DNA of 44,906 nt, taken from a virus (lineage: Duplodnaviria; Caudoviricetes). The notes beneath the pieces were generated by a model, which was given only the letters and a program-made list of their open reading frames with translations, was not told the DNA's origin and ran no database searches. Position 1 is the first letter of the stretch. Every line of letters starts with the position of its first letter. Positions 3,502 through 44,906 of the stretch are shown one piece after another. The stretch covers positions 1 through 44,906 of IMG/VR virus record IMGVR_UViG_3300035676_000016, one strand, 5' to 3'. Both the position numbers and the translations under genes were made by a program.

Positions 3502-3647
3502 GCACCTTCATTGCAATCCTCGCCTTCTCGATGCTGTTCCTGTTATTCGCCCTGGTCCTGACGGGCTTCGCCCTTAGCACGTTCAGCTTATGGCTGGACT
3601 TGAAGGACCAGCTCCAGGAGCGCCGCAAGCGGAGGCAAGGGCGATGA
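3498..3647 (+). CDS. Small membrane protein (49 aa)
   Basis: MSTFIAILAFSMLFLLFALVLTGFALSTFSLW followed by a basic tail; GGAGG RBS; ATGA overlaps at both ends. Confidence 0.7.
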   Translation: MSTFIAILAFSMLFLLFALVLTGFALSTFSLWLDLKDQLQERRKRRQGR

Positions 3648-4150
3648 CACACCCCATCACCCCACCGCCTCCGCACCTGCTCAAGAAGTTCTCGGAACAG
3701 GCGAGAGTCAGCAGCCAAAAACGTGGTACACCCAACTATCTAAAGACCTTTGCCACCCTTTGCATCGAGTGGGCGATGAACTCCAAGCCAACTCCTAATT
3801 CAATCCAAATTAGGAGTTCCGACATCACCCCACCGCCGGAGCTGGTGCAGCAGTGGTCAGCTGCTAGCCCTATTCAAAGCAACGACGAAAACTGGGCATA
3901 CGAGTTGTTCATTGCCCACCGCGCGGCCCAATGGGGCGCCGACCAGGAGCTGGAGGCGTGTTGTGAGTGGTTGGATGGTGTTGGCGATCTGACGCTGCAA
4001 CTCCGCGCCGCCCGCCGCCCCAAGCCGCCGAGCTTGAAGGAGCAGGCGCTGGAAGCCATTAAACAGATTCCAGTAGAACCCAATAGTGGTCCTTGGCGTA
4101 CCGCAATGGAAACTATTATCCGCGCCCTGGAGGCCCTGCCCAATGACTAA
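3644..4150 (+). CDS. Hypothetical protein, ITPPPEL/AQWGADQ/RPKPPSLKEQAL family (two fused modules)
   Basis: ATGA-coupled; paralogous to 4143-4517. Confidence 0.8.
   Translation: MTHPITPPPPHLLKKFSEQARVSSQKRGTPNYLKTFATLCIEWAMNSKPTPNSIQIRSSDITPPPELVQQWSAASPIQSNDENWAYELFIAHRAAQWGADQELEACCEWLDGVGDLTLQLRAARRPKPPSLKEQALEAIKQIPVEPNSGPWRTAMETIIRALEALPND
3782..3819. repeat. In-frame inverted-repeat element, copy 2
   Basis: AACTCCTAAT 3790-3799 / ATTAGGAGTT 3809-3818. Confidence 0.85.
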
Positions 4151-4517
4151 CCACCCCATCACCCCACCGCCTGAGCTAATGCAGCAGTGGATGACCGATT
4201 TTTATGGCACACCCGTTGTGCCTGGCGAGGCTTGCACTGATCTTGCCACCCGTGCCGCCCAATGGGGCGCCGACCAGCAACTTGCAGAGGATGCAAAGTG
4301 GCTGGATCACAATGCTCTAAATGAATCGCATCTGCGGATTATTCCAGTGGGTGAATTACTAAAAGAAGCAATGCGCCCCAAGCCGCCGAGCTTGAAGGAG
4401 CAGGCGTTACAAGCACTTTCTGAAGCCGTCAGAATGGCCGACGACGTTCCACCAGGGGGGATTTGCTCAGACCAAGCGGACATTATCCACCGCGCCCTGG
4501 AGCAACTTGATGGCTGA
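4143..4517 (+). CDS. Hypothetical protein, ITPPPEL/AQWGADQ/RPKPPSLKEQAL family
   Basis: MTNHPITPPPELMQQW; shares identical DNA blocks with the upstream gene. Confidence 0.8.
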   Translation: MTNHPITPPPELMQQWMTDFYGTPVVPGEACTDLATRAAQWGADQQLAEDAKWLDHNALNESHLRIIPVGELLKEAMRPKPPSLKEQALQALSEAVRMADDVPPGGICSDQADIIHRALEQLDG

Positions 4518-6310: not shown

Positions 6311-6739
6311 ATGCTCATCCTCTCTGACACACAAGCTCGGATCATCGCCGACAGCCTTAAGACCATCACGGAGCACCAGCAGGAGATCGCCACCATCCTG
6401 CACAACGCTCAGCACGTTGACCTGGAGGCCAGCAGCACCAAGCAAACCGCTGCCGCTCCAGCTGGTGAGCTGAAAGGTACGGCAAAAGTCCGTACTGCGA
6501 AGTCTCAAGTTAAGACTCGTAAGTCCAGCCGCAAGGGAAAGCGCGGGGTGGCTGTGCTGACTGAGGCGAAGGTGCTGGAGATCAAGCGGGCTTTGGCAGC
6601 GCGTACCCAGTCCGTCGCCAAGATTGCGGCGGAGTTTGGGGTGCATGTCACCACGATCAATTGCATCAAGTGGGGTAAGACCTGGAAGCATGTGCAGCTG
6701 TCCCAGGGCACGCCTTCCTCTGTGGAGATCACCGCTTGA
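6311..6739 (+). CDS. Helix-turn-helix DNA-binding protein
   Basis: C-terminal LTEAKVLEIK...VAKIAAEFGVHVTTINCIKWGKTWKHV, an HTH of the type found at the end of phage HNH nucleases. Confidence 0.8.
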   Translation: MLILSDTQARIIADSLKTITEHQQEIATILHNAQHVDLEASSTKQTAAAPAGELKGTAKVRTAKSQVKTRKSSRKGKRGVAVLTEAKVLEIKRALAARTQSVAKIAAEFGVHVTTINCIKWGKTWKHVQLSQGTPSSVEITA

Positions 6740-11764: not shown

Positions 11765-12895
11765 TCAGCTAGGGCGGATTTTCATGAGCCAGCCGGTGTC
11801 GGTGCCTTCAATGAGCCACCTAGGCAGCCAGTTTTTCTTGGAATAGGCAACGCCAGCGCCGCCCTTGTGACTTACATAGCCGCCTGCAGCCAGATTTGCC
11901 TCCCCGTAAGGATCATTGAAGATGAAGTGGGTTGGGGTGTAACCGACTACAACGCTCCAGTGGCCGCCGCCTGACGGATTGGACACAGGGCCGTGGTGCA
12001 ACCAGCCAACAGGTACGGGGCGGTTGGCGTTGATTTCGTCTTCCAGCTCTTGGGCCGTGCCGTCCATCTCAAAGGTGGCTTTGAGTCCTAGGGCTTTGAG
12101 AGCGGCGATTTGGGCTTTGGGGTCTGTAGTGTCGCCGAAGCGGGCGCGGAGTTTGTTGTATTCGTAATCTCCCGAAATTTTTCCGTAGTAGCGGGCCACC
12201 ATCGCACAACTCGAACTAAAGCATTGGCGGTAACCCGTTGCTCCATCGTCTGGTCCGAGCTGGTATTCGTAGGCAACCTTGAGGATTTTTTCTTTTGGTT
12301 TTACTGGTGGGTTAGTTCCAGTGTGTTGCTCCATCAGGGCGATCAACTTACCGGCGTAGTTGGGATCGGTGGCATACCCTTCTTTAACTAACCACTTGGC
12401 TGCTTCCTCGCGGGTGTTTGCGTTATTACAGCCTTTGTAAGTTTTGAAGTCTTTGTACCAGTGGTCTACAAGATAGATGACACAGGACAACAGGTCGGGA
12501 AAGTCAATGAAGCTGTCTGTGATGGAGATCCACTGATTGTTGATAAATTCTTGTGTTTTGGTGTCGGTGCCGTTGCCTTTGAGGCCGAAAAAGTTATTGC
12601 GGCCGGAGACAAGTTTGCCGTAGTTGGATTCCAGGGCCCATTGGGCGCTTACAAGTTCCGGGAATTTGGCGCCAGCTACGCGGGCTGCCTCGAGCACACC
12701 TTCCCACGTGTTGGGGAAGTTGGTTTGTTTACCGGCGACGCTCCAGGTCTTGAACCAGCCTTGGTCGCGGCCCAAGATGTTGGGGTTGGCTTTGTTGATG
12801 GCCTGTTCCAGCTCGGTGATGGCTGCCATCTGGTGGGGTAAACCTGGACGGTAGTACTTAAATAGATCTAAGAGGCGAAGTTTATTGGTTGTCAT
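11765..12895 (-). CDS. Endolysin: glucosaminidase (GH73-like) plus C39-like peptidase
   Basis: AQWALES..G..NNFFGLKG...GYATDPNY; QCFSSSCAM...GHWSVVVGY...NDPYG; start at MTTNK. Confidence 0.88.
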   Translation of the reverse strand: MTTNKLRLLDLFKYYRPGLPHQMAAITELEQAINKANPNILGRDQGWFKTWSVAGKQTNFPNTWEGVLEAARVAGAKFPELVSAQWALESNYGKLVSGRNNFFGLKGNGTDTKTQEFINNQWISITDSFIDFPDLLSCVIYLVDHWYKDFKTYKGCNNANTREEAAKWLVKEGYATDPNYAGKLIALMEQHTGTNPPVKPKEKILKVAYEYQLGPDDGATGYRQCFSSSCAMVARYYGKISGDYEYNKLRARFGDTTDPKAQIAALKALGLKATFEMDGTAQELEDEINANRPVPVGWLHHGPVSNPSGGGHWSVVVGYTPTHFIFNDPYGEANLAAGGYVSHKGGAGVAYSKKNWLPRWLIEGTDTGWLMKIRPS

Positions 12896-13532
12896 CGGGC
12901 TTACTCTTTTTACCAGAGCGAATAGGACGTGGCGGTGCGGTAAAGGCACGTTCTAGGGGCCAGCCTAGTCGGTATATCCTTTGCCAAAGTAAAGATTGTG
13001 TTATGTTATACAGTTCGGCCCACTCAGCTAACGATTTTGTCTGGCCTTGCCACGTCACTAGCTTATTTTTTGATGTGTTACGCATTTGCTGTTTTTGCGT
13101 AGCCCATACACAGTTACCTTTCCAATAATTTCTATCGTTATGTATTCTTTCTATACTTTTACCTTCTGGGCATTCGCCCATATCTGCGTAAAAACCTTCA
13201 AACGTGAACCACCTAGGATCTACTTGTATACCACGTGCGCCGTACCTATGGTAGTGCGGGCTGGTTTGTTGATAACACCGTTTAAACAGTGATCGCCAAA
13301 TTCTGTACGTACGAGAGTGTTGTCCTCGTCGGGCATGTCCATGCACAGTATTTTTACCTCTTAAACACCCACAACTTTTTGTTTTTCCGTTATTAAGTGT
13401 TGAACTAACGACTATAGTTAAGTTTCCACAGTCACACAGACATTCCCACCTGATTTTTCCAGTGTGTAAAGTGTGACGACGTAGTACGACTAGATGCCCA
13501 AAGCGCTGTCCAGTGAGCTTTAATGCTTGCAT
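12882..13532 (-). mobile_element. Free-standing HNH-type homing endonuclease gene
   Basis: LTGQRFGHL..WECLCDCG..SCGC..YGARGIQV..SIERIHNDRNYWKGNCVWAT..Q.RN; visibly AT-rich; inserted between holin and lysin. Confidence 0.85.
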
Positions 13533-13595
13533 CTGCCTAGTCAAGTAGGTGGATCGGAGCCGGAGTGCTGTCACACTGCCGGCTCACCTATATTA
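13533..13595 (-). promoter_or_regulatory. -10 element plus two-hairpin leader of HNH gene
   Basis: TAATAT, then GAGCCGG-C-AGTG-loop6-CACT-CCGGCTC; same geometry at 43695-43754. Confidence 0.7.
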
Positions 13596-42184: not shown

Positions 42185-42324
42185 AGTAAGACTCACGAGA
42201 CTTGCCGCGAGACCATGGCCACAGCCCCAGTCGTACCAGGCAGTCTGGCCTGTCAGGTGCGACAAAACCTATACATTCGCGTGCCTATGGGCAGGTATTG
42301 GCACTTTTAAAGGGCGAGCCAATA

Positions 42325-42368
42325 CATGAATGGCGTACCAGTCATGAATGGGGTTCAGTCATGAATGG
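42325..42368. repeat. Three direct repeats of CATGAATGG (spacing 18 and 17 nt)
   Basis: Copies at 42325, 42343 and 42360. Confidence 0.8.
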
Positions 42369-43167
42369 GATTCACTAGTTTGTCAAAGTAGAGTTTAACT
42401 CTATCCATGTATGCGACTTCGGCGTTTCTGAGGTCGTCAGCGTCTAGTGAATGGGTTTGGGGGGCACCACAACGGCGTGCCAGCACAATTAGTGCTCCAG
42501 AAGGGCGGAGTCCGGTTAAATGTTGTAAACCTAGGGAATATGCACCGCATTGGTGTACGTATGAATGCGATGAATCGAGATTTTTGCGGTTTACTGAGGT
42601 TTTCCAGTCGGCAACAATAATTCCAGGCTGGCCTTTTACGCCAATCAAGGCGTCAGCTGTTCCAGCAAATCCTGCAGGATGGTGAATAGAAAATTCGGAG
42701 GCGAAGATCTCGGTAACGTTTTCAGCAATCCAGCCAGAAAGACCTCGCGCAAATCCTGAGGCGCTCCAGCCAACCTTAGGGATATTCGGAAGGACTTTGT
42801 TCAAAGCCCATTGCGTAATCGGTGCGGGGATTCGTGCCAGGCCGTTATCGTCCCAGCGCAGACAGTTCCGCTTGTTAGCTGTTGAACGTGCCAGCCTCTG
42901 AGCACACTTGAGGAGATACTCGGCTTGGTTGTGGGCCATGTTGCCCCGGTTGGCAGCCACATTGCGTTGTTGGGTGGCTTCGACCTCTCCCAGGCGGGCG
43001 ACCCAGCGCTCCAGCCCGGTAGTGTCGCTGGTCTCCTTTAGGATGTGTGTAACACTATGGTATATAGTGCCTGTTGAGTCCCGGTAGACCCGGAAGGGGC
43101 CTGAATTGTCTTGTACCAGCCTCCTTTTCCTTAGTGCTGCCAAGGTGTCTTGTGTGTTGGAGGTCAC
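42355..43167 (-). CDS. PD-(D/E)XK exonuclease
   Basis: YHSVTHIL, RGNMAH, E..I.H..GFAGTADAL..ADWKTS, Q..AY; GTG start with TATATT -10 upstream. Confidence 0.88.
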   Translation of the reverse strand: MTSNTQDTLAALRKRRLVQDNSGPFRVYRDSTGTIYHSVTHILKETSDTTGLERWVARLGEVEATQQRNVAANRGNMAHNQAEYLLKCAQRLARSTANKRNCLRWDDNGLARIPAPITQWALNKVLPNIPKVGWSASGFARGLSGWIAENVTEIFASEFSIHHPAGFAGTADALIGVKGQPGIIVADWKTSVNRKNLDSSHSYVHQCGAYSLGLQHLTGLRPSGALIVLARRCGAPQTHSLDADDLRNAEVAYMDRVKLYFDKLVNPIHD

Positions 43168-43199
43168 GTTGGTACTTTTTCCCACTCTCAATATAGAGG

Positions 43200-43694
43200 T
43201 CAAGGCCGGATCTGACAAGCAAATTCCCCAAACAAAAGACGTTTAGCGGTTATGTAGGCGGTGTAAGCCTCCAAGGGAGTTAAAAAATCTCCTAAAGCTA
43301 TGCGTTGACCTTTAAATTTGATGGTCGCTGCGTATTTACCGCCAGAAGTTTGAGTCCAACCTTTATGTGGAACGTTCGCCATGTTTTGGCTTTGCGTACA
43401 AAGACGAAGATTCCAGGGCTGGTTATTACTGGGGTTTCTGTCCCAGTGATCTACACCGGCCTGTATATCGGAATCACCGTCTACCCAAGCGCGTATCAGC
43501 CGATGGACACCATACAAAACACCGTCTACACGTAAAACCTTGTACCCATTGCGGGTAACGCAGCCGGCAGGACTGTCCAGACGACATCGGGCAGACACAC
43601 GGACGCGCCAGAAAAGCTCGCCGGTTAACGGATTCAAGTCAAAAAGTTCCCAAAGGCGTTCAGCAGAAGGGAGCGGACGATATTCTTTGGCCAT
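43200..43694 (-). mobile_element. Free-standing HNH-AP2 homing endonuclease gene
   Basis: TGELFW..AG...GY...Y.VHRLI...VDHWDRNPSNNQPWNLRLCTQSQN plus AP2-like C-terminus; inserted between SSB and exonuclease. Confidence 0.87.
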
Positions 43695-43754
43695 CAGCCG
43701 GTTGTGCGGTTGGTCGGGGGCAGGAAGTTAGCGCTTCGCTGCCCCACAACTTTA
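43695..43754 (-). promoter_or_regulatory. -10 element plus two-hairpin leader of HNH gene
   Basis: TAAAGT, then GGGGCAG-C-GAAG-loop6-CTTC-CTGCCCC; same geometry as 13533-13595. Confidence 0.7.
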
Positions 43755-43756
43755 AC

Positions 43757-44338
43757 TCACGCGGCGCTGAAAGGGTTACCGCCAGTCAGCAGGCGTTCCA
43801 GGTCGAAGCCGGCAGACTTGGCCTCAATCCAGGCAGCGTCGATATGCTCTTGGGCGCCTTTCTTGCGGGGGACGGGACGCAGGGTGTACTCAGTCAAGAG
43901 GCCGGAGCCTTTTTTGCTGAGGCTGAAATCCCAGGCAAGCAGATCCTCATAGTCCTCCATTTGGCTGATTGAATCCAGCTCTTTGAGGATGGATTTCTGG
44001 GTCAGGGAGAGGATCTGTACGCGTCCGCTATCAAATGTGTAAACCGGGACGGCGATGGCGAATTTCACGTCGGCGGTACCAGGGCCGCCGCGGCCTTCGC
44101 GGGGCTCGAAGTCGCCCATCTCCACTTTGAGGTCGCCTTCGGTGGGCTCGTGGTCAAAACGGAAGGGCTTGGTGGCGCCGTCGCAGGTGCCCCAGCACTC
44201 ATAGAACTCGAGCGGGGTGTCGGACAGCAGGGCGAAACGGACGCTGCCGCCGTCGGGGAGTTTGGAGACTTGCAGATAGCCGCCGCCGCTGCCAGAGCTG
44301 GAGACGTTGGCTGATGCTTGTTTGGAAAGGAAACCCAT
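43757..44338 (-). CDS. Single-stranded DNA-binding protein (gp32-like OB fold, putative)
   Basis: GGYL..SKL.DG.SVRF...TQKSI...WDF.LSK.G.GL.TEY.L.P; next to exonuclease and primase; TGCTACTGT -10 at 44384-44392. Confidence 0.7.
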   Translation of the reverse strand: MGFLSKQASANVSSSGSGGGYLQVSKLPDGGSVRFALLSDTPLEFYECWGTCDGATKPFRFDHEPTEGDLKVEMGDFEPREGRGGPGTADVKFAIAVPVYTFDSGRVQILSLTQKSILKELDSISQMEDYEDLLAWDFSLSKKGSGLLTEYTLRPVPRKKGAQEHIDAAWIEAKSAGFDLERLLTGGNPFSAA

Positions 44339-44418
44339 TGCGGTTACTGGTGTTTGATGGTCGCCTGAGTGGCAACGTCTACTACAGTAGCACGGGTTGA
44401 CGCAGGGGGCTACCCTAC

Positions 44419-44451
44419 AAAAACGCCCCACTGCCAGAAGGCGGTGGGGCG
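44419..44451 (-). terminator. Strong hairpin with U-tract on the - strand, in the primase leader
   Basis: CGCCCCACTGCC-AGAA-GGCGGTGGGGCG preceded by AAAAA on +. Confidence 0.5.
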
Positions 44452-44483
44452 GAGTGAACATTCTCGTGTAGGAGTCTACCACT

Positions 44484-44906
44484 GTGTCCAGTGAGACGCA
44501 ACAGCTGTTGAATTTTGTGCGTCAGTTGCCCGTGGGCATGGCGTATGCACCGATTTACAGGGCTGGCAGCAAGCTCCAGTCCGGTAAGGAAAGTAAGGGC
44601 AAGGCGCCGTTGGAGCGGAGTCACCATCAGGTGATGGGGCCGGCGGACGTGGTGCTCCAGATCGAGCGGAAGCCGGATGTGTTTCGGGCGGTGGGTGTGT
44701 TTACCGGGCCTCGCAGCGCGGGACTCGTGATTCTCGATGTGGATCGGAATCTCAGCCGTCTCAAGAAAAAGTGGGGGGAAACGCTGGAAGGTGCTCCAGT
44801 CGTTACGTCCACCAAGGCAAATGCGGCTAAGTACCTGTTCCGGGTGCCTGAGGCGCTGTGGCCGGAGGTGCAGGGTTTTGGACTGTCGGATACCGGGGCT
44901 GGGTAT
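44484..44906 (+). CDS. DNA primase-helicase, N-terminal Prim-Pol domain (continues at 9-2027)
   Basis: AGGAG RBS, GTG start; GKAP...AVGVFTGP..GLVILDVD...KYLFRVP; no stop before the window end. Confidence 0.88.
   Translation, partial: MSSETQQLLNFVRQLPVGMAYAPIYRAGSKLQSGKESKGKAPLERSHHQVMGPADVVLQIERKPDVFRAVGVFTGPRSAGLVILDVDRNLSRLKKKWGETLEGAPVVTSTKANAAKYLFRVPEALWPEVQGFGLSDTGAGY

What the first reader, a model, noticed from the sequence alone, without database searches (positions are those of the whole stretch)
13533..13595. Two unrelated homing endonucleases share an identical, covarying two-hairpin leader: candidate undescribed cis-regulatory RNA
Seen on the - strand. Copy 1: TAATAT-AG-GT-GAGCCGG-C-AGTG-(TGACAG)-CACT-CCGGCTC-CGATCC-A-CCTA-(CTTGAC)-TAGG-CAG-ATG. 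Copy 2 (43754-43692): TAAAGT-T-GT-GGGGCAG-C-GAAG-(CGCTAA)-CTTC-CTGCCCC-CGACCA-A-CCG-(CACAAC)-CGG-CTG-ATG. Both have a -10 hexamer, GT, a 7-bp stem, a bulged C, a 4-bp stem, a 6-nt loop, a CGA(T)CC linker, a second hairpin with a C...AC 6-nt loop, then CWG-ATG and no Shine-Dalgarno. The stems differ in sequence but keep pairing, and the two proteins belong to different HNH subfamilies. Known: T4 I-TevI-type genes use an RBS-sequestering hairpin plus a late promoter, but that architecture differs. Inference: a portable expression-control module for selfish nucleases. A transcript starting from the adjacent -10 would begin inside the first stem and disrupt it, whereas read-through transcripts would fold it.
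Basis: partly seen in the sequence, partly recalled or inferred. Interest (0 to 1): 0.8.

Follow-up and report, generated by a model that had tools for sequence, protein, structure and literature searches.

The report
Antisense RNA heading phage nuclease genes
The two look-alike "leaders" are copies of a portable control module found at the start of many selfish DNA-cutting and recombinase genes in phages, and its conserved fold and a conserved promoter-like motif lie on the strand opposite the gene, so it likely makes a small antisense RNA that would hold these genes down.

Summary
Both copies are real. They belong to a family of at least 142 distinct elements with no Rfam match; 93 of 110 complete downstream ORFs are HNH/His-Me nucleases. 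Coding-strand stem mismatches are A·C, which are G·U pairs on the opposite strand (24 versus 0). An opposite-strand TAnnnT sits in the ORF's first codons in 67 of 83 elements, against 10 of 405 other gene starts. In 40 copies found without my patterns it stays 5–8 nt before the first helix while the ATG shifts among three registers (34 of 40). This is the anatomy of P22 Sar and E. coli SymR, though neither Rfam model matches. Best reading (0.75): a ~60-nt cis-antisense RNA that represses translation. No transcript is shown, and copy 1's −10 is non-canonical. Copies also head integrase, resolvase and ribbon-helix-helix genes, and occur in cultured phages (Gordonia Spooky and Horus, MinS1). This scan noted the same kind of module on other DNA at least nine times. 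New variant of a known kind; interest 0.58.

The parts
13531..13592 (+). Predicted antisense RNA, copy 1 (5' end inferred at the A opposite the T of ATG; 3' end unknown, about 13589-13595)
   Evidence: CM match 13531-13589, 57.1 bits; two-hairpin fold -28.8 kcal/mol, z -3.66
13531..13554 (+). Copy 1 helix P1 (9 bp with two G-U pairs, 6-nt loop); complementary to the translation-initiation region
13557..13585 (+). Copy 1 helix P2 (7 bp + 4 bp, 3'-side bulged G, 6-nt loop in the minority, flipped orientation)
13519..13524 (+). Copy 1 candidate antisense -10, TTTAAT (non-canonical), 6 nt before P1, inside codons 3-5
   Evidence: sequence shown; family position; the same hexamer in L001/L002
13590..13595 (-). 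Copy 1 coding-strand -10-like hexamer TAATAT
   Evidence: family conservation
12882..13532 (-). Free-standing HNH-type endonuclease gene 1 (216 aa, phrog_374), an optional insert between a 46-aa gene and the endolysin
   Evidence: none of 80 endolysin relatives has the element upstream of the endolysin, and the nearest have a 23-29 nt gap
43693..43752 (+). Predicted antisense RNA, copy 2 (ends inferred)
   Evidence: CM match 43693-43749, 66.2 bits; fold -31.0 kcal/mol, z -3.34
43693..43714 (+). Copy 2 helix P1 (8 bp with U-G and G-U pairs, 6-nt loop)
43717..43745 (+). Copy 2 helix P2 (7 bp + 4 bp, bulged G, G-UUAGCG-C cap of the same type as in Sar and SymR)
43681..43686 (+). Copy 2 candidate antisense -10, TATTCT, 6 nt before P1, inside codons 3-5
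43749..43754 (-). Copy 2 coding-strand -10-like hexamer TAAAGT, 2 nt after the stop codon of the ssb-like gene
43200..43694 (-). Free-standing HNH_3 endonuclease gene 2 (164 aa, phrog_99), an optional insert between the ssb-like and exonuclease genes
   Evidence: 13 of 69 related loci carry element plus HNH here, 56 do not

Best explanation
The element is a two-hairpin module with opposed -10-like motifs at the head of free-standing nuclease genes, whose helices are complete on the strand opposite the gene, so it likely encodes a ~60-nt cis-antisense RNA that would start from a predicted promoter inside the gene's first codons, would pair with the mRNA's start region and would block translation. 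Shown: conservation, covariation, strand asymmetry of the pairs, the position of both hexamers, and linkage to nuclease and recombinase starts. Inferred: transcription of the antisense RNA, its 5' end at the first base of helix P1, P2 as a stabilising or terminating 3' hairpin, initial contact through the two variable loops, and repression (with possible RNase III decay or promoter collision) that limits a toxic nuclease read through from upstream phage genes.
For: (1) Strand. In a parse that allowed G-U and A-C equally in the outer stem, the non-Watson-Crick cells of hairpin 1 on the coding strand were 24 A-C and 0 G-U. On the antisense alignments G-U outnumbers A-C 200 to 5 (A1) and 78 to 2 (A4). 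Antisense folds lower in 81 of 83 and 39 of 40. (2) Covariation on the antisense structure: 16 of 20 pairs change on both sides, 7 of 9 in P1, with 98.3% of cells paired, in 36 distinct copies found without my patterns. (3) Promoter. Antisense TAnnnT at offsets 4-6 after ATG in 67 of 83 elements, versus 10 of 405 other ORF starts in the same loci and 486 of 14,454 downstream windows. It falls in three codon phases, so no single residue explains it. (4) It tracks the helix, not the codon. In 40 further copies the ATG sits at -3, -1 or +2 relative to P1, while TAnnnT stays 5-8 nt upstream in 34. (6) Need for repression. At the ssb-exo site 52 of 56 alleles without the element have a hairpin+TTTT terminator in the gap, but 0 of 13 with it have one in the first 100 nt after ssb. 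(7) The two window copies share only 6-nt perfect cross-complementarity, as expected for cognate-specific control (cf. Sib/ibs, PMC2943612 passages).
Against: No transcript has been seen. Copy 1 itself has only TTTAAT (or TAATGC) at the promoter position, and 16 of 83 elements lack TAnnnT there. L611 and L672 are clear exceptions among the 40. The 5 well-formed copies in picocyanobacterial genomes have nAnnnT, 0 of 5 TAnnnT. No conserved -35 appears, and the consensus scan finds no promoter or intrinsic terminator around copy 2, so the 3' end is unexplained. For copy 2 the coding strand has the stronger shuffle z-score (-4.39 versus -3.34). The P2 loop is flipped onto the coding strand in 15-19 of 142 elements, including copy 1. 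163 of the 200 G-U cells in A1 lie in columns fixed by my search patterns, and A4 was fitted to the model. 10 of 62 P0001 relatives lacking the regex motif also have the hexamer; L080 and L011, from the same pool of loci, later proved to carry the element.
Confidence: 0.75

Rival explanations
1. Coding-strand leader: the mRNA hairpins themselves gate translation, differently in read-through and locally initiated transcripts, as for T4 I-TevI, segB and Aeh1 mobE.
For: A conserved coding-strand -10. Both strands fold well. In read-through RNA of copy 2 the -10 flank pairs with the linker. Precedent in T-even phages (PMC2988022 passages).
Against: Mismatches are systematically A-C on this strand. 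The SD-like tetramer, where present, lies in or next to the loop, not buried in the stem. It does not explain the in-ORF opposite-strand hexamer that keeps its distance to P1.
Confidence: 0.1
2. Opposed promoters act by transcriptional interference; the RNA fold only ends or stabilises a transcript whose pairing to the mRNA is incidental.
For: Two conserved convergent -10 motifs about 60 nt apart.
Against: P1 is conserved and covaries although it is not needed for termination. Loops vary between co-resident copies, as in pairing-specific systems.
Confidence: 0.08
3. A single-stranded DNA structure (attC- or HUH-like recombination signal) that helps the cassette move; G-T pairs would also favour one strand.
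For: Strand asymmetry also holds with DNA parameters (56 of 65). The loop occurs in both orientations. The module sits on unrelated genes, including integrases and a resolvase.
Against: It was found only at 5' ends of genes, never as a pair flanking a cassette. Cassette boundaries differ between alleles. It gives no reason for a -10 at promoter spacing from P1.
Confidence: 0.05
4. The RNA binds the encoded nuclease as an inhibitor or guide (type III antitoxin- or OMEGA-like).
For: Conserved tertiary-looking details: the invariant G-C pairs flanking the bulged G, and tight linkage to nucleases.
Against: The same RNA heads unrelated folds (HNH_3, HNH, endonuclease VII, tyrosine integrase, serine resolvase, RHH). 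It is fully complementary to its own mRNA start. It has no variable guide-length segment.
Confidence: 0.02

Closest known systems
P22 Sar RNA (Rfam RF00262), antisense to ant
   Same: From record NC_002371: 68-70 nt, promoter inside the first codons of the target with TATACT 6 nt before +1, a 5' stem-loop facing the ribosome site, and a 3' hairpin capped by G-UUACCG-C. It blocks ant translation (PMC12197685 passage).
   Different: No hit to RF00262; my models do not score sar. Sar controls one antirepressor downstream of arc, with no coding-strand promoter at its 3' end. This family has its own P1 consensus and bulged-G P2, and heads nucleases and recombinases.
E. coli SymR/symE (Rfam RF01809, type I toxin-antitoxin)
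   Same: 77-nt two-hairpin RNA that overlaps the start codon, with its promoter embedded in the target ORF (PMC1891008 passages) and a G-UUGGCG-C cap. That exact cap occurs in 4 of 83 members. The L808/L809 subfamily starts GUCAU, like SymR's AGUCAU.
   Different: No hit to RF01809 (where the model finds symR itself). Longer helices in SymR. The target is an AbrB-fold protein under LexA. Toxicity of the present targets was not tested.
IS10 RNA-OUT/RNA-IN (recalled from my own knowledge; no call fetched it)
   Same: Convergent promoters and a ~70-nt antisense RNA covering the start of a selfish-element enzyme.
   Different: Single long stem-loop, one transposase; not compared here at sequence level beyond the Rfam scans.
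RBS-sequestering hairpins with late promoters of T-even homing endonucleases (I-TevI/II/III, segB, Aeh1 mobE)
   Same: Same class of target gene, and a local promoter at the hairpin (PMC2988022 passages).
   Different: Those act in cis on the mRNA strand and bury the SD; here the conserved pairs and a second promoter motif are on the opposite strand.
CfrI of cyanophage S-PM2
   Same: An antisense RNA opposite a cyanophage homing-endonuclease gene (PMC2984593 and PMC12197685 passages; the original paper was not read).
   Different: About 225 nt, spans psbA and F-CphI, function unknown, T4-like phage; its sequence was not compared.

Membership tests
Rfam sar (RF00262) | Scores at the family's gathering threshold (43 bits) | tested here: not met
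   0 matches in the window; no match at E<=10 in 20 member loci or 6 more; positive control P22 scores 97.8 bits
Rfam sar (RF00262) | Target is the ant antirepressor | tested here: not met
   Targets are nucleases, integrases, a resolvase, RHH and unknown proteins
Rfam symR (RF01809) | Scores at the gathering threshold (61 bits); target is SymE | tested here: not met
   (control symR 95.3 bits)
Cis-encoded antisense RNA, Sar/SymR type (works-like class) | Promoter -10 on the opposite strand inside the target's first codons | tested here: met
   Motif level only: 67 of 83 and 34 of 40; non-canonical in copy 1
Cis-encoded antisense RNA, Sar/SymR type (works-like class) | Two stem-loops complete on the antisense strand, covering the ribosome site and start codon | tested here: met
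Cis-encoded antisense RNA, Sar/SymR type (works-like class) | The RNA is transcribed with defined ends | not testable with these tools
   No RNA run holding the window was listed; see Tried and rejected
Cis-encoded antisense RNA, Sar/SymR type (works-like class) | Represses target translation by pairing | not testable with these tools
   needs a reporter assay
Type I toxin-antitoxin system | Target protein toxic when the antisense RNA is lost | not tested
   inferred only from nuclease annotation
T-even RBS-sequestering hairpin with late promoter | SD buried in a coding-strand stem that a late transcript cannot form | tested here: not met
   SD-like tetramer absent in both copies and in or beside the loop in 51 of 142; mismatch pattern points to the other strand

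The most novel reading that the evidence does not exclude
The module is one branch of an old, cross-phylum superfamily of plug-in antisense switches (with Sar and SymR as distant members). Selfish genes swap it as a unit of promoter, RNA and first codons, and its variable loops define specificity groups. A resident cassette's RNA would then silence in trans an incoming nuclease or integrase with matching loops, giving RNA-based 'homing immunity' between co-infecting phages.
Probability: 0.2. Interest if true: 0.8.

Novelty: new variant of a known kind. Interest (0 to 1): 0.58.

Why it matters
How free-standing homing endonucleases are kept from harming their own phage is listed as an open area in the T4 review (PMC2988022 passages), and the known answer is a coding-strand hairpin. 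If true, this is a different, widespread solution: a portable Sar-like antisense switch shared by unrelated nucleases, integrases and resolvases in cyanophage-like viruses, actinophages and cyanobacterial DNA. It is directly testable, because copies lie in cultured phages (Gordonia phages Spooky, Horus and GAL1; MinS1) and one silent promoter mutation separates the models. It also gives a compact orthogonal antisense part, and a gene-start marker: in Spooky it points to a GTG start 78 nt downstream of the annotated ATG.

Tried and rejected
Rfam: nothing at gathering scores in the window, and nothing overlapping the element at E<=10 in 26 member loci. tRNA/tmRNA: none in the window; the NCCA-like 3' end of some copies is not conserved. 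Hammerhead, HDV-like, group II domain V/VI, fluoride-riboswitch and spliceosomal resemblances were considered by eye from recalled consensus and dropped, because their core motifs are not conserved in the family. Expression: no RNA holder was listed, and three same-study runs laid nothing on 42300-44500; this is no evidence either way. The exact pattern in bacterial genomes gave 0 of 120 true copies (a quarter of the collection scanned). blastn of copy 2 against cultured phages gave only four 18-nt chance hits. A loose terminator test did not separate alleles (12 of 13 element alleles positive); the stricter test did. My models do not detect sar or symR. Literature: ten searches showed no description of this family. 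Passages of PMC2864571 and PMC11109978 had none. In PMC10690425, supplement files 3-6 had no hit for short motif strings, but files 1-2 and mmc1-3 could not be read. The supplement of PMC5737381 could not be read either. These unseen files may hold the motif. PMC12390103 (abstract and outline only) concerns a different system. The tree has no biological meaning and was used only to read record titles.

Full report
Setting. The window is a complete 44.9-kb viral record with siphovirus-type head and tail genes, a family A polymerase and an endolysin. Its capsid's best cultured matches are cyanophages S-2L (39%) and KBS-S-2A, so a cyanobacterial host is an inference. Both flagged stretches read as quoted. 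Each lies directly before a free-standing His-Me/HNH nuclease gene: P0001 (phrog_374) and P0002 (phrog_99, HNH_3), with no significant pairwise match. Both cassettes are optional. None of 80 endolysin relatives has the element upstream of the endolysin, and the closest have a 23-29 nt gap (the small upstream gene was found in 52 of 82 loci examined). At the ssb-exonuclease site 13 of 69 loci carry element plus HNH, 1 carries an HNH without it, and 55 carry neither (11 of 80 loci lacked ssb and were dropped).

Family. Pattern scans of viral and metagenome contigs and protein-based fetches gave 299 records and 142 distinct elements. Where the pattern did not ask for the body of hairpin 1, it was present in 100 of 109 stored viral loci and 92 of 120 metagenome loci; nearly all of the rest look like chance matches. 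Of the 142, 110 have a complete ORF, 31 are cut by the locus end and 1 is three codons long. The 110 fall into 31 clusters. Judged by one representative per cluster, 93 are HNH, NUMOD4-HNH, HNH-AP2 or endonuclease VII-type nucleases; 17 are phrog_32006, unknown, truncated or other proteins. Covariance models found more divergent copies. These lie before further HNH genes, tyrosine integrases and, in 5 of 121 genomes drawn from the family of a Synechococcus record, two RHH genes, a serine resolvase and two unclassified ORFs; one of the six hits is probably chance (only 46 candidates were scored per genome). Named records carrying it at an HNH start are Microcystis phage MinS1, Gordonia phages Spooky, Horus and GAL1, and (weakly, 14 bits) Mycobacterium phage Maddy2. 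A Nostoc PCC 7524 plasmid carries it before a hypothetical gene. One complete relative carries three full copies and a remnant. Rfam has no match, although the same scan finds sar and symR in their own loci.

The strand is the opposite one. On the coding strand the non-Watson-Crick cells of hairpin 1 are 24 A-C, 0 G-U and 1 other among 788; A-C reads as G-U on the reverse complement. In the training alignment P1's invariance is partly imposed by my patterns. In 36 distinct copies that match none of my patterns, 16 of 20 pairs, including 7 of 9 in P1, change on both sides, with 98.3% of cells paired, against 28-46% for slid controls (this alignment is fitted to the model). G-U outnumbers A-C 78 to 2 there. 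Against this, copy 2's coding strand has the better shuffle z-score, and G/U-rich strands fold lower in general (established), so folding energy alone carries little weight.

A promoter motif inside the gene. An opposite-strand TAnnnT ends 4-6 nt after the ATG in 67 of 83 distinct elements whose patterns asked for nothing beyond the ATG. The controls are 10 of 405 other ORF starts in the same loci, 486 of 14,454 downstream windows, and 10 of 62 P0001 relatives without the regex motif (L080 and L011 from that pool of loci later proved to carry the element). The hexamer falls in three codon phases. The strongest test is. In 40 distinct copies not matching my patterns (41 hits chosen by me; the blastn matches to GAL1 and Maddy2 overlapped the promoter region), the ATG lies just outside P1, at its first base, or two bases inside it. 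TAnnnT nevertheless stays 5-8 nt before the model start in 34. Two more have it at 11 nt, where the model starts 4 nt late; one was not displayed because of a short flank, one is misaligned, and two (L611, L672) lack it. The motif is thus tied to the RNA helix rather than to the protein. Copy 2 has TATTCT 6 nt before P1; copy 1 has only TTTAAT. The genomic cyanobacterial copies keep only nAnnnT. No -35 is conserved, and no U-tract ends the RNA. A coding-strand -10 faces it about 60 nt away (59 of 76; 66 of 81).

Mechanism. Shown: anatomy, covariation, strand and linkage. Inferred: a ~60-nt RNA starts at P1, folds P1 and the bulged P2, and meets the mRNA through its loops. 51 of 142 members carry an SD-like tetramer opposite the P1 loop region, and 76 of 142 have a YUNR at the antisense P2 loop, 15 on the mRNA side, 53 neither (role of YUNR from PMC2943612 passages). 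It would then block initiation. The need is plausible: element-bearing alleles lack the terminator that follows ssb in 16 of 18 short alleles (0 of 13 within 100 nt; 5 of 13 have one somewhere in the gap), so upstream transcription would run into the nuclease. The two window copies share only 6-nt perfect cross-matches, so each would control its own gene. Shared first codons on unrelated proteins (for example MDQS- on NUMOD4-HNH, His-Me and phrog_32006 ORFs) suggest that promoter, RNA and first codons move as one unit (inference).

Comparison. The annotated P22 record shows sar starting next to the ant ATG, with its promoter inside ant and a 3' hairpin capped G-UUACCG-C. symR overlaps the symE start, has its promoter inside symE and a G-UUGGCG-C cap (PMC1891008 passages; PMC12197685 passage). 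The family works like these but is not a member of either Rfam family, and my models do not detect them, so homology is unproven. Known control of homing endonucleases is by coding-strand RBS hairpins (PMC2988022 passages). The one antisense precedent I found, CfrI, is longer and of unknown function (PMC2984593 passage). IS10 RNA-OUT is recalled, not checked. Ten literature searches showed no description; unread supplements of PMC10690425 and PMC5737381 could hold the motif.

Earlier notes of this scan. I recorded the antisense reading, before any look-up. Searches then showed nine AI notes that reach the same kind of conclusion on other DNA (T4-like, jumbo and actinobacterial phages). They are not independent evidence. 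Sequence look-ups found no look-alike, so whether they are the same RNA family is open; the actinophage one probably overlaps with my Gordonia hits.

Verdict. Real, conserved and uncatalogued; most likely a portable Sar/SymR-type antisense switch (0.75), without transcript evidence. New variant of a known kind; interest 0.58.

Noticed in passing
window 3590-4517 (+): Two tandem ORFs of phrog_32006 (unknown function). The same family is fused behind the antisense module in other phages (L157, L586 by PHROG; L808, L810 by eye), but not here.
   Followed up: partly
window 6311-6739 (+): A 142-aa ORF with weak HNH-family PHROG hits over an HTH-like stretch; it has no copy of the module.
   Followed up: partly
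window 43170-43757 and L599-L678: The ssb-exonuclease gap is a hot spot for optional genes: 38 of 69 loci carry other inserts, several beginning MKVLVACEYSG (methyltransferase-like by recall), ahead of a conserved exonuclease promoter region.
   Followed up: partly
L601:3360-3417 and 10 similar loci: A second HNH insertion site just downstream of the exonuclease with its own subfamily of the module; the window has no element there.
   Followed up: partly
L679:1183-1263 (Gordonia phage Spooky gene 31): The annotated ATG start lies upstream of the module; a GTG with a GAGAGG ribosome site 78 nt downstream fits better.
   Followed up: partly
L772 (G001:7463-7507): A decayed copy that keeps P2 but has lost P1 and has no ORF behind it.
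   Followed up: no
L556:280-963: The module heads a 228-aa ORF with a GIY-YIG-like N-terminus by eye and a weak 'homing endonuclease' PHROG hit.
   Followed up: partly
L811:1826-2503: A Hint-domain ORF next to an RHH gene headed by the module in a picocyanobacterial genome.
   Followed up: no
window 42355-42372 (-): A short direct repeat (CCCATTCATGACT twice) at the end of the exonuclease gene.
   Followed up: no
phage collection: About 150 Mycobacterium and Gordonia phage records match only the P2-type capped hairpin; whether they are further members was not checked.
   Followed up: no
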